This document shows, in pieces, positions 1,206 through 33,660 of a stretch of 64,000 bases of DNA (position 1 is its first letter; every line of letters begins with the position of its first letter). The translations under genes were made by a program, and so were the position numbers. The DNA comes from an uncultured Chloroflexia bacterium (GTDB taxonomy: Bacteria > Chloroflexota > Anaerolineae > B4-G1 > SLSP01): positions 64,001 to 128,000 of the forward strand of contig CAVVUS010000037.1 of NCBI GenBank assembly GCA_963751345.1, read 5' to 3'. The notes under the pieces are model-generated. The model saw nothing but the letters and a program-made list of their open reading frames with translations, did no database searches and was not told where the DNA came from.

Positions 1206-1424
1206 TTATGTCGATGTATCCTTCACCTTGAGAGTCAGATAACCAACATAACGGTCGATCGGATCCTGCATACAACGCCGGTCGTCGGCCGATCGGCCGA
1301 CGACACGGGCTCTTATCTTACTACGGTGTCGGCTGAACGCGAGAGCTTGCAGTCTGCACGACACAGCAGTATACAGGTATTGTACTCTTGGACAGGTCAC
1401 CAAGTCGGGAGGCTCGCGATTCAC

Positions 1425-1943
1425 ATGAGCAACACTCTCATTCCTGCGTTGCTGGCTCTGGCGTGTGGCAGCATCTTCATCCTGGCCCTTATCGGGCTGG
1501 GACTCTTTCTCGTGATCCAGGGCACCCGCAGCCGCCGCAAGGCAGGTGAGAGCCTGCAGTGGCCCAGCGTGAGTGGAGTTATCGTGGAGACGCAGGTTCG
1601 TGAAGCCCGTAACACCGACGACGACGGCAACATCGATGTGAGCTACTACCCGCGCGTGGACTACACTTATGAGGTGGGAGGGCAGACGTATCGTTCTCAC
1701 CTCATTGCGTTTGGCGCCATCAAGCCGGTGAAGAACGCGGCTCAGGTGCAGAAAGGACTGGAGCGCTACCCCATGGGTGGCCCGGTGACCGTCTACTACA
1801 ATCCGGAAAAGCCGTCCGAGGCGGTGTTGGAGCGAGCGCCGGCGCACACACAGGCACTGCTCGTCATCGGTGTCATATGCCTGGTCCTTGCACTTTGCCT
1901 CGGCGGCCCGCTGATCCTGGGTGTCATCAACAACATCCGCTAG
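1425..1943 (+). CDS. DUF3592-like membrane protein
   Basis: N-terminal TM helix, WPSVSGVIVE...YYPRVDYTYEVGGQTY...VTVYYNPEKPSEAVLE, C-terminal TM helix; start MSNTL within ORF 498-1943. Confidence 0.8.
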   Translation: MSNTLIPALLALACGSIFILALIGLGLFLVIQGTRSRRKAGESLQWPSVSGVIVETQVREARNTDDDGNIDVSYYPRVDYTYEVGGQTYRSHLIAFGAIKPVKNAAQVQKGLERYPMGGPVTVYYNPEKPSEAVLERAPAHTQALLVIGVICLVLALCLGGPLILGVINNIR

Positions 1944-1976
1944 ATCGCACTCACTCGGACCGAGCTAACGCACTGC

Positions 1977-3704
1977 CTAAAGCGTGTACTTCTGCGTGAT
2001 CGGCGGGCGGCGGTCCTTGCCGAAGGCGCGCACCGTGATACGCACTCCCGGCGGCGCCTGCCGCCGCTTGTACTCCGCACGGTCCACCATCCTCACGACG
2101 CGCATCACGAGCGCCTCGGATACGCCGAGATTCCTGACGATCTCCTCGGGTGATTGGTCCTCTTCGACGTATGCGCGCAGGATCGGATCGAGAATCTCGT
2201 ACTCGGGAAGGGAATCGCTGTCCTTCTGGTCGGGCCGCAGCTCCGCCGATGGCGGGCGCGTGATAGCGCGCTCCGGGATAACCGGGCTCTCGCCCTGCTC
2301 GTTGCGCCAGCGCGACAGCGCGTAGACCAAGTCCTTGAGTACGTCCTTGATAACGGCGTACCCGCCGGCCATATCGCCGTAGAGCGTCGCATAGCCCACG
2401 CTCATCTCGCTCTTGTTGCCGGTCGTCAGCACCATCCAACCGAACTTATTGGAGAGCGCCATCAGGTAGTTGCCGCGGATGCGCGCCTGAACATTCTCCT
2501 CGGCGACGTTGGCCGCGGTGCCCGCGAACGGTGCTGCCAGCGCGTCGAGATAGGCGACGAAGACTTGCTCGATCGGAATGGTCATATAGCCGATACCGAG
2601 ATTCCTCGCCAACACAGCTGCATCATCATTGCTCATGTCCGCGGTATAGCGCGACGGCATCGAGACACCCGTGACGTTCTCCGGGCCCAGGGCATCGGCC
2701 GCAATGCAGGCGACGAGGCTGGAGTCGATGCCGCCCGATAGCCCGATCACAACCTTCTGGAATCCGTTCTTGCGCACGTAGTCGTGGGTGCCCAGCACCA
2801 ATGCGCTATAGATCTCGGCGAGATCGGGTAAGGGCTCGACCAGGTGTTCCGGCACGCCGGGTTTCTCGCTGTCAGATTCGGCCCCCGCGACAGGAAGATT
2901 GATGACGGGTAACGAGGCCGACGTGGCCTTCCGGCGCCGCGGATCGTGGAGCCGCCACCGGAACACGGCAGCCGTGTCGACGTCGGCGACGACAAAGTCT
3001 TCCTTGAATTGCGCGCCACGCGCGATCACCTCGCCTCGCTCGTCGATGATCAGGCTACGTCCGTCGAAGATCAGCTCATCCTGTCCCCCCACCAGATTGC
3101 AGAACGCCAGCACGGCGGCGTTATCCGCGGCACGCGTCCGCAGCATCTGTTCGCGCGAACTGCCCTTTCCCGCGTGGTAGGGAGACGCAGAGATATTGAT
3201 GAGCAGCCGTGCGCCGCCGTCAAGCGCTTGCTCCTCAGGCGGACCCGCAGGATACCAGATGTCCTCACATATGCTGACGCCAAAGGTCAACTGACCACGG
3301 CGCAGCACACAGTTGCTGTTACCCACCTGGAAATAGCGATCCTCGTCGAAGACGGCGTAGTTCGGAAGATAGTGCTTGTGATACGTGTGGACCCATACGC
3401 CATCGTGGAAAATGGCGGCGGCATTGTGAACGTCGTCGTCCACATCGGCGAATCCCACAATCGCCGTGATGTCCTGCGTCGTGTCCGCAATCGTGCGGAC
3501 GGCATCGAGGTTAGCCTGGAGAAATGACGGCTTCAGGAGCAGATCCTCCGGCGGATAGCCGGTCACGGACATCTCGGGGAAGAGCACGATATCGGCGCCC
3601 ACGTCCCGAGCGCGCCGGATTCCGGCCTCGATCTTGCTCACATTGCCATCGATGTCCCCAACGACTACATTGATCTGCGCCATCGCGATTCGGGCACGGC
3701 TCAT
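1977..3704 (-). CDS. nadE: Glutamine-dependent NAD+ synthetase
   Basis: Nitrilase-like domain (FPEMSVTGYPPEDLL, ICEDIW) plus synthetase domain (GLSGGIDS, ENVQARIRG, TGNKSE, GYATLYGD, PSAELRPDQKD). Confidence 0.97.
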   Translation of the reverse strand: MSRARIAMAQINVVVGDIDGNVSKIEAGIRRARDVGADIVLFPEMSVTGYPPEDLLLKPSFLQANLDAVRTIADTTQDITAIVGFADVDDDVHNAAAIFHDGVWVHTYHKHYLPNYAVFDEDRYFQVGNSNCVLRRGQLTFGVSICEDIWYPAGPPEEQALDGGARLLINISASPYHAGKGSSREQMLRTRAADNAAVLAFCNLVGGQDELIFDGRSLIIDERGEVIARGAQFKEDFVVADVDTAAVFRWRLHDPRRRKATSASLPVINLPVAGAESDSEKPGVPEHLVEPLPDLAEIYSALVLGTHDYVRKNGFQKVVIGLSGGIDSSLVACIAADALGPENVTGVSMPSRYTADMSNDDAAVLARNLGIGYMTIPIEQVFVAYLDALAAPFAGTAANVAEENVQARIRGNYLMALSNKFGWMVLTTGNKSEMSVGYATLYGDMAGGYAVIKDVLKDLVYALSRWRNEQGESPVIPERAITRPPSAELRPDQKDSDSLPEYEILDPILRAYVEEDQSPEEIVRNLGVSEALVMRVVRMVDRAEYKRRQAPPGVRITVRAFGKDRRPPITQKYTL

Positions 3705-3804
3705 GGTTCCTCCCCAGGGTCCAAAGTCTCAAGGCCGGGTAACAGTATACACGCTTTGGTAGGGCCGGGAACCGGTTGATAGGGGACGGAGGCATCTACG
3801 AAGG

Positions 3805-4297
3805 TCAGGTTGTGTCGATCAGCTCACAGACAGGGCCGGGACCCAGCCCGGGGTGCGCCGCCGACCCGCTGCTATGGAGCGCGGACTCAAGCTGGTGCAA
3901 TAACTTCGCCGGAGGAACGACGCCGTAGTTGATGTGCACCACGCGACCGCTGGGGTCAACGACCAGGCTGGTCGGCAGCGTCAGAATGTTGTAGGCCTTG
4001 GCTCGGTCGGGTTCGGCCTCTACATCCACAGGCTCGATCAGAGTGCGCACCCTCTCATCGAGCTGGGTCCACAGGCGAGCCTGGGTCTCGCACGACACAC
4101 AACTGTCGCTCCGAAAGTAGATCACGCGAGGGCACGGATCACCAGGTTCCCTCAGCGACGGTGCAGCGCCTGTCGAGCGCGGCACTTCACGCATGAGCTG
4201 CATTGCTGGCCCTGCGGCGTTGGTACCAGGTAGCCAAGAGGGCCAGGAGGCCGGCCACGACAACGACCGCGAGGGCGATCAGAAATCGATCGAGCAT
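3805..4297 (-). CDS. Membrane-anchored thioredoxin-like protein (frameshifted)
   Basis: ATG 4297 gives TM segment MLDRFLIALAVVVVAGLL; a second frame has CVSC and ILTLPT thioredoxin motifs. Confidence 0.75.
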
Positions 4298-23593: not shown

Positions 23594-23636
23594 ACAGACT
23601 CCCCGCGCACCGAACGACACGCGGGGAGTCTGTTTC
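23594..23636. terminator. Terminator-like hairpin between convergent genes, closing the ECF operon
   Basis: ACAGACTCCCCGCG-loop-CGCGGGGAGTCTGT followed by TTC. Confidence 0.7.
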
Positions 23637-23647
23637 TGTACTGAAAC

Positions 23648-24103
23648 CTACTTAACCTGGATCTCTACCACGCCCTTGACCTGAAGGTTACCGGGGAAGT
23701 CCGGAAGCACGGTGCTGAAGCCGCCCTGGTTGCGGAATGAGACAATACAGTTCGAGCACCCCTGTAGCTCGCTCAATGCCACCTCGGCCGTGTAGCCATC
23801 GTCGGCCACAAAGACCACCGTGGTCGCACCACTCGCGACGCCGGCGATACCCAGCAGATCGTTGATCGGAACGCCCGTGTAGGTGCTCGCGACCCCATCC
23901 TTGTTGGTAGACTCGACATCGATGGCATCCATCGCCTTGAGGTCAGCCTCCGTCCAGCCGACCTCACTGTCCACACTACCGGTGACCTTGAGTGCAGCGT
24001 CGCTGGGGACACCTGAGCTGGTACCGCTCGGGCTGCCACACGCCGTCAGCGCCATAGCCACCACCAAGATGACGACCAACCATAGACCAGATCTCTTCGA
24101 CAT
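23648..24103 (-). CDS. Lipoprotein with molybdopterin-oxidoreductase-like (Oxidored_molyb) domain
   Basis: Lipobox LTAC; LKVTGSV...ADLKAM...YTGVPINDLL...ADDGY...VKGVVEIQV. Confidence 0.75.
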   Translation of the reverse strand: MSKRSGLWLVVILVVAMALTACGSPSGTSSGVPSDAALKVTGSVDSEVGWTEADLKAMDAIDVESTNKDGVASTYTGVPINDLLGIAGVASGATTVVFVADDGYTAEVALSELQGCSNCIVSFRNQGGFSTVLPDFPGNLQVKGVVEIQVK

Positions 24104-24152
24104 ATTGTTCTCCTCTTGTTGATAGACAGATTGATAATCGATGCTCACTCCC

Positions 24153-24635
24153 TCACGGATTGACCGTGAGGGTTTGCACCTGGAATACCCAGCGATTCGC
24201 TGGCGTCTCCGGGCAGACCAACCGGATGGGACCTTTGTCCGGCTCCGCCTTGGTGATCCACGTTCCATCTTTCTGCAATGCGACGATTGCATTCTGGAGC
24301 TCGTCTCGCGTGATCTCGATGGCATAGCCGTCTGCCGCGGTCGCCGTGATCGTAGCGAACTCTCCGACACCTGATTGACTCAGGATTGCGTCAAGCGAGA
24401 CTCCGCTCCACGAAGCCGTCTCGTCCTCGCCCAATGACTTCTGCATCAGGATATCCGTCAGATCGATTTGGGGCATACCTGCCAGATCGGCATAGCTCAA
24501 CGCAAGCGGCGTGCTCACATCACCCTCGATCGAGAGCGTCCACTCCACCTTGGGGGCACTATTGCAGGCCGCCGCCAGCAGGACGACACCGGTCAGGAGA
24601 CATAGAGCCAACAACCTCATCGTTTTCATTTCCAT
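24153..24635 (-). CDS. Lipoprotein with molybdopterin-oxidoreductase-like domain
   Basis: Lipobox AAAC; WTLSIEGDV...SYADLAGMP...WSGVSL...AADGY...GPIRLV...RWVFQV. Confidence 0.8.
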   Translation of the reverse strand: MEMKTMRLLALCLLTGVVLLAAACNSAPKVEWTLSIEGDVSTPLALSYADLAGMPQIDLTDILMQKSLGEDETASWSGVSLDAILSQSGVGEFATITATAADGYAIEITRDELQNAIVALQKDGTWITKAEPDKGPIRLVCPETPANRWVFQVQTLTVNP

Positions 24636-24704
24636 TCCTCCTCATACACACTTCATGCTCCTCACTCACTGTCTCGCTGCGTTACCTTTGATCTCACCTC
24701 CTCG

Positions 24705-25844
24705 TCACGGCTCTCTGACAAAGACCGGGATCAGCATATCCCGGGCAATGAGGTGCCCGTGATTGCCCTGTCGACCCTCCTCGTCCACGGTGTGCATCCC
24801 GTGGTCCGCCACCATCAGTACCAACGTGCCGTCGGGCAGAGCCTCGAGAAGCTGTCCAACAGCAGCGTCCACCCCCCTGATCGCAGCGACCTCCTCCGGC
24901 GCGCCGGGCCCGTACGTGTGCCCCGCGTCATCGATACCGTGGAAATGGACCCACAGCAGATCGGGCATACCCGCTTCGATGGCGGAGAGCGCATTGGCCA
25001 ACACGTTGTCATCGGTGCTCCCGTTTCCATCGCGATCGCCCGACAGTACGATTTCTGCGTCACGCAGGTTGAACGCCAACGCGTCCCCCTCAATGGCGAC
25101 GACCTGACGCTCTGCCGCGGACAAGACCCTAAACACAGTCTCCACCTCGGTGCTGCGGATGCCCCTGTCCGTTACGCCATTGACGACCGGCGGAGCGCCG
25201 CTCAGAAGCGCCGCCGAGGCAACCGCTGTGCAAGGCGGATAGACGGTCAACCCTATGAGTGGATCGCCCAGCGAAGCGAGAACCGGGATCAAGCCCGCGT
25301 CACGCGCCTCCGTGTATCGGACGTAGCCAAAGCCATCGAGGATCATTAGCAGAACGCGATCCGCCGGGCCGACCGCCAGGGACTTGCCGGTGGCCTCCGC
25401 CGGCGCGGGCAGGCCAAGCGCGTCCGCCGCCGTCGGGGCCAGGTCCGTAATGCTCACACTCGGCGCTGAAGGGAGCGTCAGTGGCTCGACGGACAGAGCT
25501 GCAGGTACGATAGTATTCCCACCTAGCGTGATCTTGCCGTCCAGAGACCACCAAGCGTCTTCCGCCGTTGGATCCCAACTATACGTCGTGACACTCCCTG
25601 CGGTGTCCGTAACGGTCACCGAGCTCACCAGATGATAGGCTGCCGCGTACAGCACGGTATCTACCGGCACGCCGTCCGACTCTCCGTGGGCCAGCAGGCC
25701 CTTCACCACATCGCGGTTCACCACGCCTGTCGATCCATCGGGGCCAACCACGATTGTCTCCCAGGCGTGTGCACAGCCAGACAGACCCAGCAAGCCGATC
25801 AGAAACACAATACATGCCGAAAGCACCGCCACAGATCGCTTCAT
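24705..25844 (-). CDS. Alkaline-phosphatase-superfamily (nucleotide pyrophosphatase/phosphodiesterase-type) lipoprotein
   Basis: Lipobox LSGC; ILDGFG, PPCT (Thr nucleophile), IDDAGHTYGP, VADHG, GNHG. Confidence 0.82.
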   Translation of the reverse strand: MKRSVAVLSACIVFLIGLLGLSGCAHAWETIVVGPDGSTGVVNRDVVKGLLAHGESDGVPVDTVLYAAAYHLVSSVTVTDTAGSVTTYSWDPTAEDAWWSLDGKITLGGNTIVPAALSVEPLTLPSAPSVSITDLAPTAADALGLPAPAEATGKSLAVGPADRVLLMILDGFGYVRYTEARDAGLIPVLASLGDPLIGLTVYPPCTAVASAALLSGAPPVVNGVTDRGIRSTEVETVFRVLSAAERQVVAIEGDALAFNLRDAEIVLSGDRDGNGSTDDNVLANALSAIEAGMPDLLWVHFHGIDDAGHTYGPGAPEEVAAIRGVDAAVGQLLEALPDGTLVLMVADHGMHTVDEEGRQGNHGHLIARDMLIPVFVREP

Positions 25845-25847
25845 GCG

Positions 25848-26762
25848 CTATTGGCTCTCCAGGGCCACTACATCTGCGACCCACTGCCCGCGGCCGCGAT
25901 CAGGAAACACCAACGTCGCCTGCCCACGTACCTGCGCCAAGAGCGCGCCACGCGCCTCGTCGACGGTCACCGTCTGCGCGGTGCCATCGGCACTGCGGAC
26001 CGTAAGGGTCGTGAATGACGGATCGGCAAGGATTGCCGATACCAGAATGCCGTTGATACGGGAGCCGGCCTGCGCCGTGCGCACCTGTCCGTCGTCCTCG
26101 CTCTTAAACATGACGTCGGCCTGCTCCACTGTCACCGATTGCACGGGCCCCAGCAGGAGACGGCCCATCGACGTCGCCCGCCCATCCACCTCTAGCGGAG
26201 TCTCTTGCCCCACGACAACGACACGCCTGATACCTTTCAGCCACGCGGAAACGTGCAGATCAGGAGATGCGAATCGAATGCCATCTTCGTAGGGCAGCAG
26301 CAAGGCGGCGTCCGTCAGATTCTGGCGCTCGATGGTGACAAAGCCGCCGTCATCGGATGCCAGGGTGACGCTATCGAAGTCCGCTACACCTTGCGCGGAG
26401 AGGAACGCCGTAAGTGCCACGTGGGTGTTTGGCTGATCCCGGTAGGGCAGCACGTCATCGACCAGAACGTACCCCGGCTCGGGTACATCTCCTTCGAAAG
26501 CCACCACAGCATAGAAGGGGACGTCGCTCAATTCCAACGCTCCGTGCTCATCATGGCACGTGGTGCAGCGATGAAACTCCGCGGTGTCGTGACACTCGGC
26601 ACATGCACTCATGGTCGCCGCCTCTTCGGCGAGCACCTTGACCGGATAGTCTGTAAGCACACGGACGGGCACAGCGTGCATCGAGCCGACGACCACCCCG
26701 ATCGTGCCGCCCAGCAGCACCAACAGAACAAACCCGGGCACCAACCAACGGGATCTTCTCAT
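25848..26762 (-). CDS. Membrane-anchored putative diheme c-type cytochrome with two molybdopterin-oxidoreductase-like domains
   Basis: N-terminal TM; CAECH and CTTCH; domains ending AWLKGIRRVVV and QWVADVVALE. Confidence 0.65.
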   Translation of the reverse strand: MRRSRWLVPGFVLLVLLGGTIGVVVGSMHAVPVRVLTDYPVKVLAEEAATMSACAECHDTAEFHRCTTCHDEHGALELSDVPFYAVVAFEGDVPEPGYVLVDDVLPYRDQPNTHVALTAFLSAQGVADFDSVTLASDDGGFVTIERQNLTDAALLLPYEDGIRFASPDLHVSAWLKGIRRVVVVGQETPLEVDGRATSMGRLLLGPVQSVTVEQADVMFKSEDDGQVRTAQAGSRINGILVSAILADPSFTTLTVRSADGTAQTVTVDEARGALLAQVRGQATLVFPDRGRGQWVADVVALESQ

Positions 26763-26801
26763 TCGCTCCTCCGAGACTGTGCACCTTAGATGCCGGCGAC
26801 C

Positions 26802-27587
26802 TCAGAAGGTGCCGGGTACTTTCAGGCGGAGCCCCAGGACCAGCGTCGCCAGGGCGAGCAATAGCGCGCCCGTCGCCAGGATATCCGTCCGGGTGAAGGG
26901 CACCTCGCGCAGAAAGGTCCGCCGCTGGTATTGCCCGAAGCCACGCCCCTCCATAGAGACCGCCAGGGCATCGACCTTACTCAGCGCCGAAACTAACAGA
27001 GGCAAGATGAACTGGCGTGCCAGGATCAGCCACCGCCGCGGACCGGTCCGGTCGTAGGCCATACCGCGCGCGATTTGTGCGCGATAGACCGTCTCCCCTT
27101 CCTGCTCGAAAACAGGCACGAGCCGCAGGGCCGTGACCAATGCAAAGCCAAAACGGTAAGGCAAGCCGACCTGCATCAGGGCGTAAGCCAGCGCATTTGG
27201 ATCCGTCGTCAGCACAAACAAGTAACTGAGCAACACGATGCCAAGAAATCGAGCCCCGACGTACACGCCCGTGGAGATCCCCTCTGTCGTCAGACGCAGC
27301 CAGCCGAGTTGCACCCAGACCGTGCCCTCCGTCCGGAAGAGCATCTGCACGATCGCCAGTGCCGTCGACGTAATGACAGCAAGGCGCACACCCCGCACCC
27401 GTCCGGGCACAAGCCACAGCCATAGGCCGCATAGGCCACAGAGCACGCTCAGTGCCGCCCACGGAGATCGCACCGCAAAGGCGAAGACCGTGACCGTCAC
27501 GAGCCAACCGAGCTTGACCAGGGGATGCAATCGGTGGACCAAGGTCTCGCCCGGCCTGTAGGCAATCTGTTCCCGCCGAGGGCTCAT
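26802..27587 (-). CDS. ECF transporter transmembrane T component
   Basis: HRLHPLVKL, TTDPNAL, AQIARG and SMEGRGF Arg motifs. Confidence 0.92.
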   Translation of the reverse strand: MSPRREQIAYRPGETLVHRLHPLVKLGWLVTVTVFAFAVRSPWAALSVLCGLCGLWLWLVPGRVRGVRLAVITSTALAIVQMLFRTEGTVWVQLGWLRLTTEGISTGVYVGARFLGIVLLSYLFVLTTDPNALAYALMQVGLPYRFGFALVTALRLVPVFEQEGETVYRAQIARGMAYDRTGPRRWLILARQFILPLLVSALSKVDALAVSMEGRGFGQYQRRTFLREVPFTRTDILATGALLLALATLVLGLRLKVPGTF

Positions 27588-29107
27588 GCAGCGATCCCCC
27601 CTGCCAGAGGCACGTAGGCCGTACGCCCCAGCTTGGCCAATGTCGCAAAGCCCTCCTGCGGCACGTCGTCCACGGTTAGCCGCCCATGGTCGAGAAAGAG
27701 CACGCGATCGGCGTAACGAGCAGCCACCTCGGGTGCGTGACTAACCATTACGACCGCGGCACCGCGGTCCGCCTCCTCCCGGAGTAGATCGAGGACAAAG
27801 GCCGCACTGGCGGGATCCTGACCGATCAGCACCTCATCAAGCAATAGCAGGCACGGCGCATAGCCGAGAACCGAGATGAGGTTAAGCCGTCGCTTCTGCC
27901 CATAGCTCAGGCGATAGGGCGGATCAGACTCGCGACCGCGGAGTCCGGCTCTTTCCAGCAAGTCACCCACACGCGCGCGGCGTCCGTCATCGAGCAAGTC
28001 GAAGTTCCGCAAGGCGAGCATCGCCTCATCCCAGACCGTATCGGCAAAGAGCTGGTGGTCGGGGTTCTGGAAGACATAGCCGACGTTGCGCGCGAGCTTG
28101 GAGACTGGTGTACGGCGCGTATCCAGGCCAAGTACCTCCACACGCCCCCTTCGCGGTATAAGGAACCCCATCAGGCTCTGAAGCAGTGTGCTCTTCCCCG
28201 AGCCGTTATCGCCCATCACGACGACGAACTCACCCGCCTCCATCGTGAAGGAGACATCTCGCAGGACGGGATCCTCCGTGTAGCCGGCGGACAGATTCTC
28301 GACCCGCACTACTATCTCACGTCCTGCCTGCGGGAATCGGCTGCCAGGCTCGCGACCCGACCACATAGAGACCGGAGGGGTATGATGCTCGATGACTTCT
28401 CCTGCCACAACGTGCAGCCAGCGGGGATCGAAGCGGCGCAGGTAGTCCACCTTGTGCTCGATCACAACGACCGTCAGCGCCCCCGGATCCCCATCTTCCG
28501 CGCACCCATTGGCGAGGATCTGCGTCGGCTCCCTGTCTTCAGCACGGATCCTCGCGATAACGTCGAAAATCTCGGCGGTGGCTGTCGGGTCCAGATTGGA
28601 TGTCGGCTCGTCAAAGATCAGCACCTTAGGCCGCGCCGCCAGCATCGACGCCACGGCAATGCGCTGCTTCTCGCCTCCGGACAATGTCGATAGCGAGCGG
28701 TCACGCAGATGCGCTGCTCCCACAACGTCCAGGGCCCACGCGAGCCGCGCCAGGATCCTCTCCCGCGGCACGCACCGGTTCTCCAGGCCAAACGCCACCT
28801 CGTCCTGCACCGTCAGCGTACAGAACTGCGCTTCAGGGTTCTGCTGGACCAGCCCGACGGTCTCCGCGACCTCATAGATCGGCGCTCGGCGCACATCCAA
28901 ACCTCCAACAGTCACAGCACCCTCAGCCTCTCCGGCATACTGGTTGAACAGAAAGCCTGACAGAGCCAACGCCAACGTCGACTTGCCCGAGCCTGACGGG
29001 CCGGTCACGACCACAAAGTCGCCCGGCGCGATCTCCAGATCCACGTGGCGGAGCGCATAGCGGTCACTGCCCGCGAAGCGATACGAGAAGTCACGCAGCG
29101 AGATCAT
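27584..29107 (-). CDS. ECF transporter fused double ATPase (A-A')
   Basis: GPSGSGKS, QQNPEAQ, LSGGEKQR, DEPT; GDNGSGKS, FQNPDHQ, LSYGQKRR. Confidence 0.93.
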   Translation of the reverse strand: MISLRDFSYRFAGSDRYALRHVDLEIAPGDFVVVTGPSGSGKSTLALALSGFLFNQYAGEAEGAVTVGGLDVRRAPIYEVAETVGLVQQNPEAQFCTLTVQDEVAFGLENRCVPRERILARLAWALDVVGAAHLRDRSLSTLSGGEKQRIAVASMLAARPKVLIFDEPTSNLDPTATAEIFDVIARIRAEDREPTQILANGCAEDGDPGALTVVVIEHKVDYLRRFDPRWLHVVAGEVIEHHTPPVSMWSGREPGSRFPQAGREIVVRVENLSAGYTEDPVLRDVSFTMEAGEFVVVMGDNGSGKSTLLQSLMGFLIPRRGRVEVLGLDTRRTPVSKLARNVGYVFQNPDHQLFADTVWDEAMLALRNFDLLDDGRRARVGDLLERAGLRGRESDPPYRLSYGQKRRLNLISVLGYAPCLLLLDEVLIGQDPASAAFVLDLLREEADRGAAVVMVSHAPEVAARYADRVLFLDHGRLTVDDVPQEGFATLAKLGRTAYVPLAGGIAA

Positions 29108-29131
29108 CCGACGACCGTACACCTCATCCTA

Positions 29132-30493
29132 CTACCTCACTTCCAGGGCCATGACCTTCGGCGCGATCACCGTCCCGTCCATCCGTGCGACGGCGAACGT
29201 GATTCCGAGCCCGTCGATGACGGTGAAGATACGGACATCATCACTGTCCCACAAGCCCTCCAGCGGCAACGTGACAGGTGCCTCCGGCGTTTGGATGATC
29301 AAGTCGTGAGCGTCCACCTCAGGTTCCATCGAGGCAATCACCGCCCCTAATGGTACGCCCTGCAGCTTCTGTGCCCCGTGCCCTACGTCGAGACTGACGC
29401 TGTCCATCTCGAACTGCCACGCGTCAGGGTCATAAGCCCCGGCCGCCGCGAGCTTTCCCGAAACGTCGAGCGTCACGCCACCGATCACCGTCAATGAACT
29501 GACGCCACGCACCCACGCCTTGCTGTTTTCCGGGCCCACGAGGTCGAAGGTCGCATCATCGCCGTTGCCCGACGGTACCAGGAGCAACGCCGGGTTGTCA
29601 CGCACCTCCTTCAGGCTCACAAAGAACGCATATCCATCGGCAGCGCGGACGAGCAGCAGGCCGGCGTCGCTTGCAGGCTGAGCACGGGCAAGCATCTCAC
29701 GAACGGGCACACCGGAGTATCGCGCCGGCGTCCCTCGCAGCGACGCCTCGGCCGTGATGCGCGGAATATCACCGTGCGCCGTGGGGTAGGCATAGGGCGC
29801 GGCTACCGCCCCATCCACCGTGACGACTGCCGGGCCGCGGAGCGCACCGCGCAGATAAAGGCCAAAGAGGATCGTCAGTATGGCAGCCCCGCCCACCCAT
29901 ACGGGAGCGACGCGGCGATCCCGTGACGGGGCAGGCAGGTCCTTCACTACACCCGCTCGGCGAAGCGCCCCCAATAGCACCCAGCCCAGTACCCCGGCAA
30001 AGACCACACCCGAGATGGCGGCCATGCCACCTACGAGGGCAAGTGCGCCGTAGGCCAGAAGATCGGCAGGCAGGGCAGCGAAGAGCTGAAAAACAAAGAC
30101 ATTTGACGCCGACGCGAGGCCACCGGCCAGCACATAGGCCGGCAGGCGGTCCTTTCTCCGAAAGAAGAGAAAGACGGCATCAACGAGCAAGCCCGCGACA
30201 ACGTCGACGAGCACAACCAACAGGCCGTGGGTGTTCCCTGTGAGGAACTCGACGCTACCCTTGAGGATTCCGGTCAGCGTCCCCGCCCCAACCCGTCCTG
30301 TCAGTCCTATCGCGAGCGTGAGCCACAGCACATGCAGCCCGGCAGCCCACTGCGTCGACCCGGCAAAGCCCAGGATCGACTGGGCGAGGTCGCCGATAGC
30401 ATTGATGTAGGTGCTCGTGACACCGCCAAGGGCCGCCAGCGCAGCCATCATCAGCCAATCACGCGTGGCGAGGCCAGGTCGCTCTGTGCGCAT
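29132..30493 (-). CDS. ECF S component fused to two molybdopterin-oxidoreductase-like domains
   Basis: Multi-TM N-terminus (MAALAALG, GRVGAGTLTG, GLLVD); soluble C-terminus YSGVPVREML...AADGY...AWVRGV and LQGVPLGAVI...KVMALEV. Confidence 0.78.
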   Translation of the reverse strand: MRTERPGLATRDWLMMAALAALGGVTSTYINAIGDLAQSILGFAGSTQWAAGLHVLWLTLAIGLTGRVGAGTLTGILKGSVEFLTGNTHGLLVVLVDVVAGLLVDAVFLFFRRKDRLPAYVLAGGLASASNVFVFQLFAALPADLLAYGALALVGGMAAISGVVFAGVLGWVLLGALRRAGVVKDLPAPSRDRRVAPVWVGGAAILTILFGLYLRGALRGPAVVTVDGAVAAPYAYPTAHGDIPRITAEASLRGTPARYSGVPVREMLARAQPASDAGLLLVRAADGYAFFVSLKEVRDNPALLLVPSGNGDDATFDLVGPENSKAWVRGVSSLTVIGGVTLDVSGKLAAAGAYDPDAWQFEMDSVSLDVGHGAQKLQGVPLGAVIASMEPEVDAHDLIIQTPEAPVTLPLEGLWDSDDVRIFTVIDGLGITFAVARMDGTVIAPKVMALEVR

Positions 30494-30517
30494 TTTGGTT
30501 TGCTCCCTACTCAGGAC

Positions 30518-30551
30518 AAAGAAAAACGGCATGCCCAGGAAAGGCATGCCG
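30518..30551 (-). terminator. Intrinsic terminator of the riboswitch expression platform
   Basis: Minus strand CGGCATGCC-TTTCCTG-GGCATGCCG-TTTTTCTTT. Confidence 0.85.
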
Positions 30552-30607
30552 CAGTCCACGACGGAACGCGCCACTCACATAAGTGGCGCGCCCTGTAGAG
30601 GGAGGGC

Positions 30608-30708
30608 ATCTCCTTTCCAAACACGGGAGGCATGGCCGTTTCCCGCCATACCCAATGGTCTCAGGCCTTGGGAGGTAAAGTATCCTTTAGGCTGTGAGAC
30701 TCGGAGAC
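30608..30708 (-). ncRNA. Moco RNA motif riboswitch, P3-less (Tuco-type) variant
   Basis: Minus strand TCTCCGA-GTCTCA..GCCTAA..TGAGAC-CATTGGGT-ATGGCGG-GAAA-CGGCCAT-GCCTCCCGTGTTTGGAAAGGAGA; 3' part matches the GCCTCCCGTxTTTGGAAAGG signature of the moaA leader. Confidence 0.88.
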
Positions 30709-31140
30709 AAGCTATGGATGTGCAACGTGTAAGGTACTGTGATCCAAAGGCAATCCTACCACGCCGGACCACAAACACAAATGGCACCTGATCCTGGCGC
30801 ATGGTGTTTGGGCGCTCTCTCGTCTATCGCCAGGGCGTACGCATGTCGAGCCGCAGCAGGCCGCCGGGCAGTGCACAACTCCTCAGCGACGACCCCTTCC
30901 CTAGGTGAGACGCGGCGACGCCCGTCTTCTGCTGCGCCGGGAACGCCGTTCGAGACAAACGTCGCGTCCCCAAGGCACTCCACCACGCGGTAGACGCCCC
31001 GACGACGCACTCCAATGCGCGGCTTCCCCAGTAGCATGCCACGTGAAATGCCTGCGTCCTGGCCTTTCCCTCTCCGAGGGACGCTGCTATGATAGCGGCA
31101 TCACGACGAGCGGCTACCATTACGCCCAAGGGAGGGTGCT

Positions 31141-33660
31141 ATGGACTTCGAAAAGCTTGGGGCCTTCTACCTCGGCAAGGCCTACGACCTCGCAAATCAG
31201 CAGTTGCTGGAGCAATTGACGATGTACGACGCCCGCGACCTGACCACGCACGCGGTCTGCGTCGGCATGACCGGGAGCGGAAAGACGGGGCTCTGTATCG
31301 ACCTCCTGGAGGAGGCGGCGATCGACCGCGTGCCCGCTCTGATTATTGACCCCAAGGGCGACATCACGAACCTGCTGCTTACCTTCCCGGACCTTCTCCC
31401 CTCGGACTTCCGCCCGTGGATCAACGTTGACGACGCGCGACGCCAGGGCCTCACCGAGGACGCGTACGCCGAGCAGCAGGCGAAGCTTTGGCGAAACGGC
31501 CTGGCCGAGTGGGGCGAGGATGGCGACCGTATCCGGATGCTGCGCGAGACCGCGGACTTCGCGATCTACACGCCGGGCAGCGACGCAGGGTTGCCGGTCT
31601 CGATCCTCCAGTCGTTTGCCGCACCCAAGCTCAGTTGGGACACCGAGGCGGAGCTGCTCCGCGAGCGCGTCCAGGGCACCGTCAGCGCGCTGCTGGGGCT
31701 CGTCGGCATCGACGCCGACCCGGTCCGGTCGCGCGAGCACATCCTGCTGGCTAATCTCTTCGAGCACTTCTGGCGCAAAGGCGAGGATCTGGACCTGCCC
31801 AAGCTTATCCTCTCGATCCAGACGCCGCCCATTCGAACCCTGGGCGTCTTCGACGTCGACACCTTCTTCCCGGAAAAGGACCGCTTCGGCCTCGCGATGG
31901 CGCTCAACAACATCATCGCTGCGCCTGCCTTCCAGAGCTGGCTCAACGGGCAACCGCTGGATATTGCCGGCTTCCTCTGGACACCGGAGGGCAAGCCGCG
32001 CCACTCGATCTTCTACATCGCCCATCTCAGCGAAGCCGAGCGCATGTTCTTCGTGACGATGCTGCTTGGCCAGCTCGTGACGTGGATGCGCACCCAGCCC
32101 GGCACCACCAGCCTGCGCGCGCTGCTCTATATGGACGAGGTCTTCGGCTTCTTCCCCCCGGTCGCGAACCCACCGAGCAAGCTACCGCTGCTCACGTTGA
32201 TGAAGCAGGCACGCGCCTTCGGTGTGGGTGTGGTGCTGACGACGCAGAACCCGGCCGATCTCGACTACAAGGGGCTGACCAACGCGGGTACCTGGTTCGT
32301 CGGGCGCCTCCAAGCGGAGCGTGACAAGGATCGACTTCTGGAGGGCCTCGAGGGTGCTTCGGCTCAGGCCGGCGGTTCGCTGGACCGCGCGGCGATCGAC
32401 AAGATCATCAGTGGGCTGGGCAAGCGGGTCTTCCTGCTGCACAACGTCCACGACGACCAGCCCACGGTCTTCCAAACGCGGTGGGCAATGAGCTATCTAC
32501 GCGGTCCCCTCACCCGCATGCAGGTCCGCGATCTCACGGCCGGCCAGACACCGGCAAGTGAATCGGCGGCCTCCGCCGCACCGGCGGCCTCGCCCACATC
32601 GGCGCCGCTGCCGACACCGGTACCCACACCTAAGGCACCCGAGGCCCCCTACGCCGCAGTTCCACCCGTGCTGCCGTCCGGCGTGCAACAGGTCTACCTG
32701 CCGCAGCGGCAAGGCGCGTCGACAGCAGAGCGGACGGTTGAGCAGCGCGCCGGAGGGCGCATCGAAGTTGAGGAACGCCATATCCTCTACCGGCCGGCCC
32801 TGCTCGGCATGGGACGTGTGCACTTCGTGAAGAACACCCAGGCCGTCCAGGTTGACGAATCCGAGGCCGTCGCCCTCTTGGCCCAGCCGCCGCAGGGCGT
32901 GGGCACCGTGCGATGGGAGCAAGCGGAGTCGCTAGACCTCCAGACACGGGATCTCATGGACAGGCCCGAGGCCGATGCCTATTTCGATGTGCTGCCCGAC
33001 ACAATCAACGAGTCCAAGAAGCTCACGGCGCTGCGCGGCGAACTCGAAGATCATCTCTACCGGTCGCGAAGCCTGAAGCTGCTCTATAACCCTGCGACGA
33101 AGCTCTACTCGGAACCGGACGAGAGCGAGCGTGACTTCCGCGCCCGCGTCAGTCAGGCCGCGAGGGAGCTGCGTGACGACGAGGTGGACACACTGGACGA
33201 CCGCTTCAAGAGCAAACTTAACACGCTGGAGGATCGTCTTCGCACGGCACGAGTTGCACTGGATAAACAGGAGACAACGGCACGGCAGCGCAAACAGGAT
33301 GCCCTGATCACCGCAGGCGAGACTGTCTTCAGCCTCTTCTCCGGCCGGCGCCGCTCGATCTCCAGCGCTGCGCGCAAAGTAACGCAGGCCACGACCACCA
33401 AAGCCGGTATCAACGCAGCAGAGGAGAAAGTCGCTGACGTCGAGGCCGACATCGAGGAGATGAAGGCCGAGCTCAAGCAGGAGACCGAGACCATCGTGAC
33501 ACGGTGGGAAAGCGCGCTCGCCGATTTCGAAGAGCTGCCCGTCACCCCGCGTCGCTCGGACATCGAGGTCAACCTCTTCGCGCTGGCCTGGGTGCCCGCG
33601 TGGTACATCGTCTACCGCACGGGTAATATCACGCAGACCGCGACGGTTCCGGCCTACTGA
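31141..33660 (+). CDS. HerA/FtsK-superfamily ATPase (DUF87/DUF853-like) with C-terminal coiled coil
   Basis: HAVCVGMTGSGKTG, IIDPKGD, LYMDEVFG, KQARAFGVG, TTQNP. Confidence 0.85.
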   Translation: MDFEKLGAFYLGKAYDLANQQLLEQLTMYDARDLTTHAVCVGMTGSGKTGLCIDLLEEAAIDRVPALIIDPKGDITNLLLTFPDLLPSDFRPWINVDDARRQGLTEDAYAEQQAKLWRNGLAEWGEDGDRIRMLRETADFAIYTPGSDAGLPVSILQSFAAPKLSWDTEAELLRERVQGTVSALLGLVGIDADPVRSREHILLANLFEHFWRKGEDLDLPKLILSIQTPPIRTLGVFDVDTFFPEKDRFGLAMALNNIIAAPAFQSWLNGQPLDIAGFLWTPEGKPRHSIFYIAHLSEAERMFFVTMLLGQLVTWMRTQPGTTSLRALLYMDEVFGFFPPVANPPSKLPLLTLMKQARAFGVGVVLTTQNPADLDYKGLTNAGTWFVGRLQAERDKDRLLEGLEGASAQAGGSLDRAAIDKIISGLGKRVFLLHNVHDDQPTVFQTRWAMSYLRGPLTRMQVRDLTAGQTPASESAASAAPAASPTSAPLPTPVPTPKAPEAPYAAVPPVLPSGVQQVYLPQRQGASTAERTVEQRAGGRIEVEERHILYRPALLGMGRVHFVKNTQAVQVDESEAVALLAQPPQGVGTVRWEQAESLDLQTRDLMDRPEADAYFDVLPDTINESKKLTALRGELEDHLYRSRSLKLLYNPATKLYSEPDESERDFRARVSQAARELRDDEVDTLDDRFKSKLNTLEDRLRTARVALDKQETTARQRKQDALITAGETVFSLFSGRRRSISSAARKVTQATTTKAGINAAEEKVADVEADIEEMKAELKQETETIVTRWESALADFEELPVTPRRSDIEVNLFALAWVPAWYIVYRTGNITQTATVPAY

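What the first reader, a model, noticed from the sequence alone, without database searches (positions are those of the whole stretch)
23648..30708. Candidate Moco/tungsten-cofactor scavenging system: riboswitch-controlled ECF operon with six molybdopterin-binding-like domains
Seen: seven tightly packed co-directional genes (S-fusion, A-A', T, diheme protein, NPP-type phosphatase, two lipoproteins) follow a Moco-motif RNA and terminator and end at a hairpin near 23600. An Oxidored_molyb-like module (G-V-x-[LVI]...DGY...[WQ]V-x-x-V) recurs about six times in four proteins with lipoboxes or membrane anchors. Known: ECF transporters import vitamins and cofactors and are often controlled by riboswitches for their own substrate; Moco RNAs normally precede moa/mod genes or Mo/W enzymes, and none of those genes is in this operon. 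Inference: the operon captures, processes and imports intact Moco/Wco or molybdopterin. I know of no characterised ECF transporter for a pterin cofactor.
Basis: partly seen in the sequence, partly recalled or inferred. Interest (0 to 1): 0.93.

Follow-up and report, generated by a model that had tools for sequence, protein, structure and literature searches.

The report
Riboswitch-controlled pterin cofactor salvage transporter
A seven-gene membrane transporter operon switched by a molybdenum/tungsten-cofactor-sensing RNA looks like a system for scavenging the ready-made pterin cofactor from the environment, and many bacteria that carry it have lost the genes to make that cofactor themselves.

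Summary
A full-length Moco/Tuco riboswitch (RF01055, 71.6 bits, no P3 stem) and a terminator precede seven co-directional genes. These are a YkoE-like ECF S component fused to two extracytoplasmic domains, A-A', T, a membrane-anchored CxxCH protein, an NPP phosphodiesterase lipoprotein and two lipoproteins. The recurring module is a Cys-less SUOX fold closest in size and residues to PruR, a proven periplasmic pterin binder. Six copies are supported.

The operon is conserved across Anaerolineae: 170 genome loci were found and 80 were examined. A same-strand riboswitch lies within 517 nt upstream in 67 of 77 testable loci.

Of 45 carrier genomes, 29 lack MoaA and MoaC, against 7 of 143 non-carriers in a class sample. 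Eighteen also lack MoaE, MoeA and a TupA-like tungstate binder. All 45 nevertheless encode 1-20 tungsten-pterin AOR enzymes. In five such genomes this operon is the only Moco-riboswitch target.

A one-domain variant operon carries a non-homologous phosphoesterase instead of NPP.

Best reading (about 0.6): uptake of metal-loaded molybdopterin (tungsten/molybdenum cofactor), with surface capture and trimming. The substrate is inferred, not shown. I found no published precedent.

The parts
30594..30718 (-). Moco/Tuco riboswitch aptamer (RF01055), the variant without the P3 stem
   Evidence: 71.6 bits (gathering score 36), E 2.6e-15, full length, P3 positions deleted; 72 of 81 related copies also lack P3.
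30526..30552 (-). Intrinsic terminator of the expression platform (predicted OFF switch)
   Evidence: 11-bp stem, 7 GC pairs, 5-nt loop, tail TTTTTCTTT. It appears in the minimum-free-energy fold.
29132..30493 (-). ECF S component (YkoE-like, residues about 1-215) fused through a further membrane segment to two extracytoplasmic PruR-like domains (about 220-337 and 338-454)
   Evidence: PF09819; the only PDB hit is YkoE 5EDL, E 9.3e-9; hhalign probability 98.2 and 96.1 to the lipo1 profile. D287, Y289 and W328 are invariant or nearly so.
27584..29122 (-). Fused ECF ATPases A-A'
   Evidence: two ABC_tran stretches. TIGR04520 341.8 bits, over its cut-off of 315.
26802..27587 (-). ECF T component (CbiQ family)
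   Evidence: PF02361, E 8.4e-30.
25848..26762 (-). Protein with an N-terminal membrane anchor, two close CxxCH motifs (putative c-type hemes) and two PruR-like domains
   Evidence: the second motif, CxxCHDxHG, is invariant in 33 sequences; the first is lost in six; hhalign 95.9 (domain 2) and 87.9 (domain 1); top Foldseek hits are PruR, E 4.5e-3 at best, none <= 1e-3.
24705..25844 (-). Lipoprotein of the NPP / alkaline-phosphatase superfamily (phosphodiesterase-pyrophosphatase)
   Evidence: PF01663, E 1.6e-19; best PDB hit is Xanthomonas NPP 2GSN, E 4.5e-7, with the DxxGH and DHGM motifs aligned; lipobox LSGC.
24153..24635 (-). Lipoprotein 1: a single PruR-like pterin-binding domain (D102-G-Y104, W149)
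   Evidence: Oxidored_molyb, 50.1 bits. PruR 7KOS, E 3.1e-7; pLDDT 87.6. PruR 7kom, TM-score 0.73. D102, Y104, W149 and the lipobox Cys are invariant.
23648..24103 (-). Lipoprotein 2: a PruR-like domain with DGY, an invariant CxxC, and Gln in place of the Trp
   Evidence: Oxidored_molyb, 27.8 bits. C116 and C119 invariant; probability 99.8 to lipo1; the same domain type is fused to a TupA-like binding protein in L029.
23595..23632 (-). GC-rich hairpin after the last gene (13-bp stem, no T tail)
   Evidence: Read directly from the sequence.

Best explanation
The operon is a dedicated (group I) ECF-type ABC importer with a surface capture apparatus. It salvages a molybdopterin-type cofactor from outside the cell, most likely metal-loaded molybdopterin (tungsten cofactor or Moco).

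Shown:
- The leader is a Moco/Tuco aptamer of the P3-less class, followed by a terminator.
- The transporter core is S, A-A' and T.
- Six extracytoplasmic domains belong to the Cys-less, PruR-like branch of the sulfite-oxidase fold, whose solved members bind pterins.
- The gene set and its riboswitch are conserved across Anaerolineae.
- Most carrier genomes lack early Moco synthesis yet encode pterin-dependent enzymes.

Inferred:
- When the intracellular cofactor is low, the aptamer is empty, the terminator does not form and the operon is transcribed.
- The Sec-exported lipoproteins and the heme protein bind free or released cofactor through their Asp-x-Tyr/Trp pterin sites.
- The NPP lipoprotein cleaves a phosphoester, most plausibly the pyrophosphate of dinucleotide forms (MGD, MCD).
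- The low-potential hemes and the CxxC of lipoprotein 2 keep the oxygen-labile pterin/dithiolene reduced or handle the metal.
- The ligand is handed face to face to domain 1 of the S component and moved in by ATP hydrolysis.
- Inside, the cofactor goes to AOR enzymes, or through MobA to bis-MGD enzymes, and shuts the riboswitch.
For: 1. Regulation.
- RF01055 scores 71.6 bits.
- A riboswitch lies on the same strand within 517 nt upstream of the S gene in 67 of 77 loci that have at least 300 nt upstream. It lies about 3.4 kb upstream in 2 more, and 8 have none.
- In an Rfam check, 7 of 8 loci had it.
- In five genomes without any Moco synthesis marker, the only RF01055 hits over the cut-off are those of this operon.

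2. Pterin-binding modules.
- The lipo1 profile hits SorA (2e-9), PruR 7KOS (3.1e-7), 7RKB and 7KOM.
- Foldseek gives PruR 7kom a TM-score of 0.73.
- The Cys hairpin of SorA falls in a deletion, and 'DGY' aligns with PruR 'NDY'.
- According to PMC11194511 (passages), PruR sandwiches the pteridine ring between that Tyr and a Trp.
- D, Y and W are invariant in lipo1 and in S domain 1.
- The lipoproteins have Sec lipoboxes and no twin-arginine motif, so they cannot carry cytoplasmic Moco out.

3. Auxotrophy pattern in 45 carrier genomes (of the 80 loci, the 45 longer ones were taken).
- MoaA is over its cut-off in 14, MoaC is present in 16, MoaE in 9 and MoeA in 26.
- 29 lack both MoaA and MoaC. 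18 lack all four markers.
- AOR is present in 45 of 45, with 1-20 copies each.
- MoaC is present in 140 of 150 genomes of the class sample. It is missing in 3 of 7 carriers against 7 of 143 non-carriers.
- G109 (91% complete) and G143 (89%) are carriers that lack MoaC and MoeA and have 8 and 10 AOR genes.
- A MobA-like gene is kept in 5 of 5 all-negative genomes tested.
- The TupA-like tungstate binder (13 of 45) and the TCKD marker (12 of 45) occur in none of the 18 all-negative genomes.

4. Phosphoester step.
- The one-domain variant operon (riboswitch upstream in 30 of 45 testable metagenome loci) carries a calcineurin-like phosphoesterase in place of NPP. That enzyme has a weakly supported C-terminal PruR-like domain (probability 54.6).

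5. Hand-over.
- Complex prediction for the S ectodomain with lipo1 gave a median score of 0.74 against a best control of 0.01. The mark was reached by 58 of 80 solved complexes and 2 of 110 mismatched pairs.
- The runs agree in at least 90% of contacts, and the partner's pLDDT is at least 87.
- My own alignments were used, so those counts hold only roughly.
- The interface includes 287-289 and 328 of S, 102-109 of lipo1, and 143-148, next to W149.
Against: - No ligand was tested, so the substrate is inferred from context.
- The window's own genome and about a third of the carriers have a full synthesis pathway. The operon is therefore not restricted to auxotrophs.
- The lipo2-type domain is fused to a TupA-like oxyanion-binding protein in synthesis-competent genomes. 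ModA is rare among carriers, over its cut-off in 2 of 45. Both facts also fit a role in metal uptake.
- PruR binds small non-Moco pterins and has a truncated Moco cleft. These modules carry a different loop (LMEKSxGEDE) where PruR has its PW motif.
- The Trp equivalence rests on position, not on a printed alignment.
- The completeness of the 45 genomes reached through loci was not reported. Related genomes are not independent samples.
- Four AOR-bearing, MoaC-negative genomes of the sample lack the two-domain operon.
- The heme assignment rests on motifs only, and the model is poor there.
- Free Moco is very labile (recalled), so what is available outside cells is uncertain.
Confidence: 0.6

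Rival explanations
1. The operon is an ECF-type importer of the metal only (tungstate or molybdate). The extracytoplasmic modules would act as oxyanion or thio-metalate capture and redox proteins.
For: - Moco riboswitches commonly precede molybdate/tungstate transporters (Regulski 2008, PMC2408646, passages).
- ModA is over its cut-off in only 2 of 45 carrier genomes.
- The own genome has no ModA or WtpA, and its three PBP_like_2 proteins are PstS-type.
- The lipo2-type domain is fused to a TupA-like binding protein under the same riboswitch in L029.
- A second, related ECF system sits inside the own genome's moa operon, as cbiMNQO does in cobalamin operons (recalled).
Against: - 18 of 45 carriers lack MoeA, MoaA, MoaC and MoaE. 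Free metal would be useless to them, yet all have AOR genes.
- The S component is YkoE-like, a binder of an organic heterocycle.
- The modules keep the pterin-stacking Tyr and Trp of PruR.
- Two unrelated phosphoesterases are recruited in the two operon types, and an oxyanion needs neither.
Confidence: 0.12
2. The operon imports another pterin or a Moco precursor or breakdown product. Candidates are cPMP, metal-free or dephospho-molybdopterin, or an oxidised pterin that is then repaired. The finished metal cofactor would not be the substrate.
For: - PruR-type domains bind simple pterins, and their cleft is shorter than a Moco site.
- ECF S components usually take unphosphorylated vitamins (recalled), and a phosphoesterase is an integral part.
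- 11 of the 29 MoaA/MoaC-negative carriers keep MoeA. That fits import of metal-free MPT followed by metal insertion.
Against: - The 18 genomes without MoaE and MoeA could convert neither cPMP nor metal-free MPT, and they have no TupA-like tungstate binder.
- No conserved kinase or repair gene accompanies the operon: only the seven genes are conserved in the 80 loci.
- The riboswitch class senses Moco/Tuco, not a precursor.
Confidence: 0.15
3. The operon is a surface redox or sensing apparatus whose expression merely depends on cofactor status, with the ECF part importing an unrelated solute. One example is thiamine/HMP, as automatic annotation states.
For: - Source names for homologues read 'ABC-type thiamin/hydroxymethylpyrimidine transport system permease'.
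- The S domain's only solved relative is YkoE.
- PruR itself is a signalling protein.
- CxxCH and CxxC motifs suggest redox chemistry.
Against: - Rfam found no TPP riboswitch in the window, nor in the eight loci scanned.
- The pterin-type domains are covalently fused to the S component in every member.
- No DcpA-type partner is conserved.
- The link with loss of Moco synthesis would be unexplained.
Confidence: 0.06

Closest known systems
PruR-type periplasmic pterin-binding proteins (PDB 7KOS, 7KOU, 7KOM, 7KP2, 7RKB; PMC11194511)
   Same: Both are small, secreted, single sulfite-oxidase-fold domains without the Mo-ligand Cys. The pterin-stacking Tyr is conserved and a C-terminal Trp is present. 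They are profile and fold neighbours.
   Different: PruR occurs in Proteobacteria, binds monapterin/neopterin and regulates a DcpA-type c-di-GMP enzyme. The modules here are lipoproteins or are fused to an ECF S component, a heme protein or a TupA-like protein. They have Asp for PruR's Asn and an acidic GEDE loop instead of the PW motif. They have no DcpA partner and sit under a Moco riboswitch.
Riboswitch-controlled group I ECF vitamin importers (YkoEDC for thiamine/HMP; ECF-FolT, ECF-CbrT; names recalled)
   Same: Both have a dedicated S, A-A' and T in one operon. The S domain is homologous to YkoE. The controlling riboswitch senses the end product.
   Different: ECF importers normally work without binding proteins (recalled). 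Here the S component carries two external domains, and four further surface proteins are co-encoded. The riboswitch is of the Moco/Tuco class.
ModABC, TupABC and WtpABC molybdate/tungstate ABC importers under Moco riboswitches
   Same: They share the riboswitch class and the purpose of supplying Mo/W enzymes. A TupA-like protein even shares the lipo2-type domain.
   Different: Those systems are binding-protein-dependent type I ABC importers of oxyanions. They are absent from the auxotroph-type carriers.
Extracellular dinucleotide trimming before vitamin uptake (NadN/UshA with PnuC for NAD; recalled)
   Same: A surface pyrophosphatase/phosphoesterase is coupled to an importer of the trimmed cofactor. 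Here the enzyme is NPP, or a calcineurin-like enzyme in the variant operon.
   Different: The substrate here would be a pterin dinucleotide or phosphate. No activity has been measured.
Dietary Moco uptake by C. elegans from bacteria (PMC7849362; search listing and abstract only)
   Same: An organism acquires the finished cofactor from other cells.
   Different: That case is an animal and its transporter is unknown. In my searches no bacterial counterpart was found.

Membership tests
Moco RNA motif (RF01055) | Covariance-model score at or above the gathering score, over the full model | tested here: met
   71.6 bits against 36, model positions 1-135.
Moco RNA motif (RF01055) | P3 stem present (Moco class) or absent (proposed Tuco class) | tested here: met
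   P3 is absent in the window copy and in 72 of 81 related copies. The class meaning comes from Regulski 2008.
Moco RNA motif (RF01055) | Binds Moco or Tuco and switches expression | not testable with these tools
   Only the terminator after the aptamer was seen.
ECF transporter, group I (dedicated module) | S component, T component and two ATPase domains encoded together | tested here: met
   PF09819, PF02361, two ABC_tran domains, and TIGR04520 over its cut-off. The order is conserved in related loci.
ECF transporter, group I (dedicated module) | Works without extracytoplasmic binding proteins (recalled property) | tested here: not met
   Two domains are fused to S and four surface proteins are co-encoded. 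A predicted S-lipo1 contact scored 0.74 against a best control of 0.01; the mark was reached by 58 of 80 solved and 2 of 110 mismatched pairs.
YkoEDC thiamine/HMP transporter | TPP riboswitch control | tested here: not met
   No TPP riboswitch in the window or in 8 related loci. The Moco riboswitch is there instead.
PruR-type pterin-binding proteins | Sulfite-oxidase fold, small, secreted | tested here: met
   Lipoboxes seen.
PruR-type pterin-binding proteins | The Mo-ligand Cys hairpin is truncated and the Cys is absent | tested here: met
   SorA residues 92-126 align to an 18-residue stretch without Cys; no conserved Cys there.
PruR-type pterin-binding proteins | Pterin triad Asn, Tyr, Trp | tested here: inconclusive
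   The Tyr aligns (DGY against NDY) and is invariant. Asn is replaced by Asp. An invariant Trp lies at the expected C-terminal place but was not covered by a printed alignment. lipo2 has Gln there.
PruR-type pterin-binding proteins | PW motif, and a downstream DcpA-type partner gene | tested here: not met
   The loop is LMEKSxGEDE. Only the seven operon genes are conserved.
SUOX-family Moco enzymes (sulfite oxidase, MsrP/YedY) | Mo-coordinating Cys, and export of the folded, cofactor-loaded protein | tested here: not met
   No Cys. Sec-type lipoprotein signals without a twin-arginine motif.
NPP / alkaline-phosphatase superfamily (PF01663) | Profile match with the metal-ligand motifs | tested here: met
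   E 1.6e-19. DxxGH and DHGM aligned with Xanthomonas NPP.
c-type cytochrome | CxxCH heme-attachment motif on an exported protein | tested here: inconclusive
   There are two motifs, and the second is invariant in 33 sequences. No family match. pLDDT is below 50 at residues 64-82. Heme attachment cannot be tested here.

The most novel reading that the evidence does not exclude
A large part of the Anaerolineae are natural auxotrophs for the tungsten/molybdenum pterin cofactor and live on cofactor released by their neighbours.

This operon would be the first bacterial importer of finished Moco/Tuco. It would also be an ECF transporter that, against the rule for its class, uses a relay of external binding domains. 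The two-pterin tungsten cofactor of AOR enzymes may be held between two PruR-like domains placed face to face, as the predicted S-lipo1 interface suggests. Surface phosphoesterases would convert dinucleotide forms to the importable form.
Probability: 0.45. Interest if true: 0.92.

Novelty: new variant of a known kind. Interest (0 to 1): 0.87.

Why it matters
Moco and its tungsten form are usually treated as cofactors that every user must make for itself, because they are too labile to be shared.

A dedicated, cofactor-regulated importer would add molybdopterin to the list of traded vitamins. So would the widespread loss of moaA, moaC and moeA in bacteria that keep up to 20 pterin enzymes. Together they could help explain why many Anaerolineae resist isolation, and they would give a handle for supplying the cofactor to cells.

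The system would also be an ECF transporter with external binding domains, and it would extend the newly described PruR pterin-binding fold from signalling to nutrient capture.

The question is directly testable: binding assays with the soluble domains, and rescue of a laboratory Moco-synthesis mutant.

Tried and rejected
Readings considered and set aside
- Thiamine/HMP transporter (automatic annotation). Rejected because no TPP riboswitch was found and the Moco riboswitch is there instead.
- The modules as true Moco enzymes. Rejected because they have no Cys and carry Sec lipoprotein signals.
- A conserved cytoplasmic partner such as a kinase or chaperone next to the operon. None was found: clustering 984 ORFs from 80 loci gave only the seven operon genes as conserved.

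Results that stayed weak
- The NPP N-terminus as a seventh PruR-like module: probability 59, left open.
- The 159-aa membrane protein of the second ECF system in the own genome, as a PruR-like domain: probability 0.84, E 0.066 with a single sequence, not supported.
- The Foldseek search with the heme-protein model gave no hit at E <= 1e-3.

The seven class-sample genomes that lack MoaC and the operon
- Three have no AOR: G097, G123, G160.
- Two carry synthesis-type markers and are 84% and 91% complete, so their missing MoaC may be an assembly gap: G139, G174.
- One, G166, has a different riboswitch-controlled importer.
- One, G111, has no riboswitch hit.

Literature
- Searches for a known Moco or pterin ECF importer, or for Moco auxotrophy, found nothing relevant.
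- A 2026 review (PMC13259868, passages) states that how pterins cross membranes is unknown.
Fig. S4 and Table 1 details of Regulski 2008 and SI Figs S7 and S10 of the PruR paper could bear on the P3 classes and on the residue mapping.

Not done
- No expression data were sought (look-up of sequencing runs and read laying were not used).

Full report
**What is in the window**

Rfam finds one RNA family in the 64-kb window. It is the Moco/Tuco riboswitch aptamer RF01055 at 30594-30718 on the minus strand, at 71.6 bits against a gathering score of 36. The match is full length, and the positions of stem P3 are deleted.

An 11-bp hairpin with 7 GC pairs and a T-rich tail follows at 30552-30526. The leader folds well below shuffled controls, z = -4.6. 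The S gene starts directly after it, so the layout is that of a transcription-terminating OFF switch.

Seven ORFs then run head to tail on the minus strand down to 23648. A 13-bp GC-rich hairpin without a T tail lies at 23632-23595. The flanking genes are unrelated: a DHDPS-family gene, an ADP-ribosylglycohydrolase and a HerA-like ATPase.

**The seven proteins**

1. A 454-residue S component.
   - Its first ~215 residues match PF09819. Their only solved relative is B. subtilis YkoE (5EDL, E 9.3e-9).
   - The rest is extracytoplasmic.
2. Fused A-A' ATPases (ECF_ATPase_1 over its cut-off).
3. A CbiQ-type T component.
4. A membrane-anchored protein with two CxxCH motifs 12 residues apart.
5. A lipoprotein of the NPP family.
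   - Its DxxGH and DHGM motifs align with Xanthomonas NPP.
6. and 7. Two lipoproteins that pass Pfam's Oxidored_molyb threshold.

**The recurring module**

A profile of lipoprotein 1 homologues hits sulfite dehydrogenase SorA (2e-9). It also hits the 'pterin binding protein' PruR: 7KOS at 3.1e-7, plus 7RKB and 7KOM. Its AlphaFold model has pLDDT 87.6. That model matches sulfite-oxidase-family Moco domains and PruR, which account for the Foldseek hits at E <= 1e-3 apart from rank 39 of 39 (9a64). PruR covers it best, with a TM-score of 0.73 on the target.

Profile-profile comparison places the same module in these positions:

| Position | hhalign probability |
|---|---|
| lipo2 | 99.8 |
| S domain 1 | 98.2 |
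| S domain 2 | 96.1 |
| heme-protein domain 2 | 95.9 |
| heme-protein domain 1 | 87.9 |
| NPP N-terminus | 59 (unproven) |

'About six times in four proteins' therefore holds.

The PruR paper (PMC11194511, passages read) gives the following.
- These proteins are small and secreted.
- They have the sulfite-oxidase fold but lack the Mo-binding Cys.
- They hold a pteridine ring between a Tyr and a Trp, with an Asn hydrogen bond.

In the window's modules:
- The Cys hairpin is deleted.
- 'DGY' aligns with PruR's 'NDY'.
- D, Y and a C-terminal W are invariant in lipo1 and in S domain 1.
- lipo2 keeps DGY, has Gln for the Trp and adds an invariant CxxC.

Both lipoproteins have Sec-type lipoboxes and no twin-arginine signal. 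They are exported unfolded and cannot carry Moco out of the cell. If they bind a pterin, it is an external one.

These modules differ from PruR in three ways. They have an acidic loop (LMEKSxGEDE) instead of the PW motif. They have no DcpA-type partner. They are attached to a transporter.

**Conservation**

- The S fusion has at least 755 relatives in the protein collection. Those that carry an organism name are labelled Anaerolineae or Chloroflexota.
- It falls in 236 clusters at 50% identity.
- The genome collection holds 170 loci. The 80 kept are all Chloroflexota.
- Clustering all ORFs of these 80 loci shows that only the seven operon genes are conserved. They occur in this many loci: S 75, A-A' 62, heme protein 45, T 44, lipoproteins 39, NPP 34. 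Many loci end at contig edges.
- The gene order matches the window.
- A covariance model built from eleven Rfam-confirmed copies finds a riboswitch on the same strand within 517 nt upstream of the S gene in 67 of 77 loci with at least 300 nt upstream. It finds one about 3.4 kb upstream in 2 more and none in 8. Three loci were too short to test.
- In one subclade the lipoprotein genes are divergent and have their own tandem riboswitches.
- 72 of 81 copies lack P3. Regulski et al. link that class to tungsten-cofactor metabolism (PMC2408646, passages).

**The genome test**

I searched the genomes behind 45 of the 80 loci, taking the longer loci. The other 35 were not searched.

| Marker | Present in |
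|---|---|
| MoaA over its cut-off | 14 of 45 |
| MoaC | 16 of 45 (the same 14 plus two) |
| MoaE | 9 of 45 |
| MoeA | 26 of 45 |
| ModA over its cut-off | 2 of 45 |
| AOR family | 45 of 45, 1-20 copies each |

- 29 of 45 lack both enzymes of the first step. Of these, 18 lack all four markers and 11 keep MoeA.
- AOR-family enzymes use a tungsten (or molybdenum) bis-pterin cofactor.
- 42 of the 45 carriers (43 of 46 with the window's own genome) have PF00384 proteins, many of them selenocysteine formate dehydrogenases.
- Five of five all-negative genomes tested keep a full-length MobA-like gene (97-110 bits, below a strict cut-off).

Background sample:
- In an even sample of 150 genomes of the class, MoaC is found in 140.
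- Seven of the 150 carry the operon.
- MoaC is missing in 3 of those 7, against 7 of the 143 others.

Cases with known completeness:
- G109 (91%) and G143 (89%) are carriers without MoaC or MoeA, with 8 and 10 AOR genes.
- G171 (97%) lacks MoaC but has MoeA.

In five all-negative genomes the only RF01055 hits above the cut-off are those of this operon.

Two markers of synthesis-competent genomes are absent from all 18 all-negative genomes. They are a TupA-like binding protein (13 of 45) and a TCKD-like protein that marks a second riboswitch-controlled ECF system (12 of 45).

The carriers thus fall into two kinds. One kind makes the cofactor, takes up tungstate and also has the operon; the window's own genome is of this kind. 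The other kind has only the operon and many enzymes that need the cofactor.

Caveats:
- The completeness of the 45 genomes was not reported.
- Related genomes are not independent.
- Four AOR-bearing, MoaC-negative genomes of the sample lack the two-domain operon. Two of them show synthesis-type markers, and one has a different importer.

**A second operon type**

S components with a single external domain are common in metagenomes: 359 relatives, 80 loci kept. A same-strand Moco riboswitch lies upstream in 30 of 45 loci with enough sequence. It usually sits 2.3-3 kb away because two genes come first.

- The first gene is a membrane-anchored calcineurin-like phosphoesterase. Its C-terminus carries a DGY...RW stretch that is weakly PruR-like (probability 54.6; Pfam E 7.8e-4 in L118).
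- The second is a protein with an Oxidored_molyb-like domain.

A phosphoesterase of a different fold thus takes the place of NPP. That argues the phosphoester step is part of the function and that the substrate is a phosphorylated organic molecule, not an oxyanion.

**Mechanism proposed**

Shown:
- The riboswitch class and its terminator.
- The ECF core.
- The PruR-like modules and their conserved pterin-site residues.
- The conserved linkage of operon and riboswitch.
- The association with loss of cofactor synthesis.

Inferred:
- External cofactor is bound by the lipoproteins and the heme protein.
- Dinucleotide forms are cut by the phosphoesterase.
- The hemes and the CxxC keep the labile pterin/dithiolene reduced or deal with the metal.
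- The ligand passes to S domain 1 and is imported.

A complex prediction of the S ectodomain with lipo1 supports contact but does not show it.
- The median score was 0.74 and the best control 0.01.
- The mark was reached by 58 of 80 solved and 2 of 110 mismatched pairs.
- The runs agree in at least 90% of contacts, and the partner's pLDDT is at least 87.
- My own alignments were used, so those counts hold only roughly.
- The interface brings the two putative pterin sites together: S residues 287-289 and 328, with lipo1 residues 102-109 and 143-148, next to W149.

For genomes without MoeA the imported species must already carry the metal. Where MoeA is kept, metal-free MPT cannot be excluded.

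**Rivals**

- A metal-only ECF importer fits several facts: the usual riboswitch targets, the rarity of ModA, and the fusion of the lipo2-type domain to a TupA-like protein (probability 100). It does not fit the 18 genomes that could not use free metal, the pterin-site residues or the phosphoesterases.
- Import of a precursor or of another pterin fits PruR's known ligands. It fails where MoaE and MoeA are absent.
- The annotated thiamine function has no support.

**Comparison with what is known, and novelty**

The parts are known kinds: the Moco riboswitch, a group I ECF module, the PruR fold and an NPP. The combination and the implied substrate are not known.

My searches of the held library found no bacterial Moco/Tuco importer, no ECF system under a Moco riboswitch and no report of Moco auxotrophy in these bacteria. 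A 2026 review says it is unknown how pterins cross membranes.

I rate it a new variant of a known kind, with high interest.

Noticed in passing
Own genome contig C14, held as L003 4138-12024 (-): A second Moco riboswitch (63.8 bits) precedes a further operon. In order: a cytoplasmic TiaS-TCKD-like protein, an A-A'-T fusion (767 aa), a 159-aa membrane-anchored protein, a 182-aa S component related to the window's (probability 87.6), then moaA, moaC, a split moaE, and moeA. The TCKD-like marker occurs in 12 of 45 carrier genomes, all of the synthesis-competent kind apart from G028, which lacks MoaA and MoaC but keeps MoeA and the TupA-like protein. It is often next to a TupA-like gene. Its substrate is unknown.
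   Followed up: partly
L029 6407-9868 (+), and likewise L031: Between the riboswitch and the S gene lie a TupB-like permease and a 562-aa TupA/PstS-type binding protein. The C-terminus of that protein is a lipo2-type domain with the CxxC (probability 100, 61% identity). Homologues of 565-644 aa occur in several synthesis-competent genomes.
   Followed up: partly
L105 (G166:C33:2500-14500), about 350-4250 (+): This genome is 93% complete, lacks MoaC and the two-domain operon, and has four AOR genes. Its single Moco riboswitch precedes an NTPase_1/DUF2478/MobB-like P-loop protein, a Peripla_BP_2 (BtuF/FhuD-type) binding protein and an ABC ATPase. This is a possible second, unrelated cofactor importer.
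   Followed up: no
L020 7335-7689 (-); L066, L071, L083 downstream regions (-): Tandem pairs of Moco riboswitches on the opposite strand. In L066, L071 and L083 they precede divergently placed lipoprotein genes. In L020's genome, one of only two ModA genes found lies about 10 kb further on, on the same contig.
   Followed up: no
L062 16737-16875 (+): A cobalamin riboswitch (RF00174, 67.5 bits) lies directly downstream of the operon in this locus.
   Followed up: no
L019 1879-2271 (+), and six other loci: A 130-aa ORF without a family match sits between the riboswitch and the S gene in seven loci. These overlap with the loci whose riboswitch carries a P3 insert, among them L014, L018 and L019.
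   Followed up: no
L107 (G139:C83), 611-2058 (+): After a riboswitch and a TCKD-like gene, the A-A'-T fusion seems to break off after about 130 residues. A lipo2-like ORF (72% identical to the window's) follows. This is either a rearranged locus or an assembly join.
   Followed up: no
Window 31141-33660 (+): An 839-aa protein with weak HerA/TrwB-type P-loop matches is transcribed divergently from the riboswitch. No link to the operon was seen.
   Followed up: no
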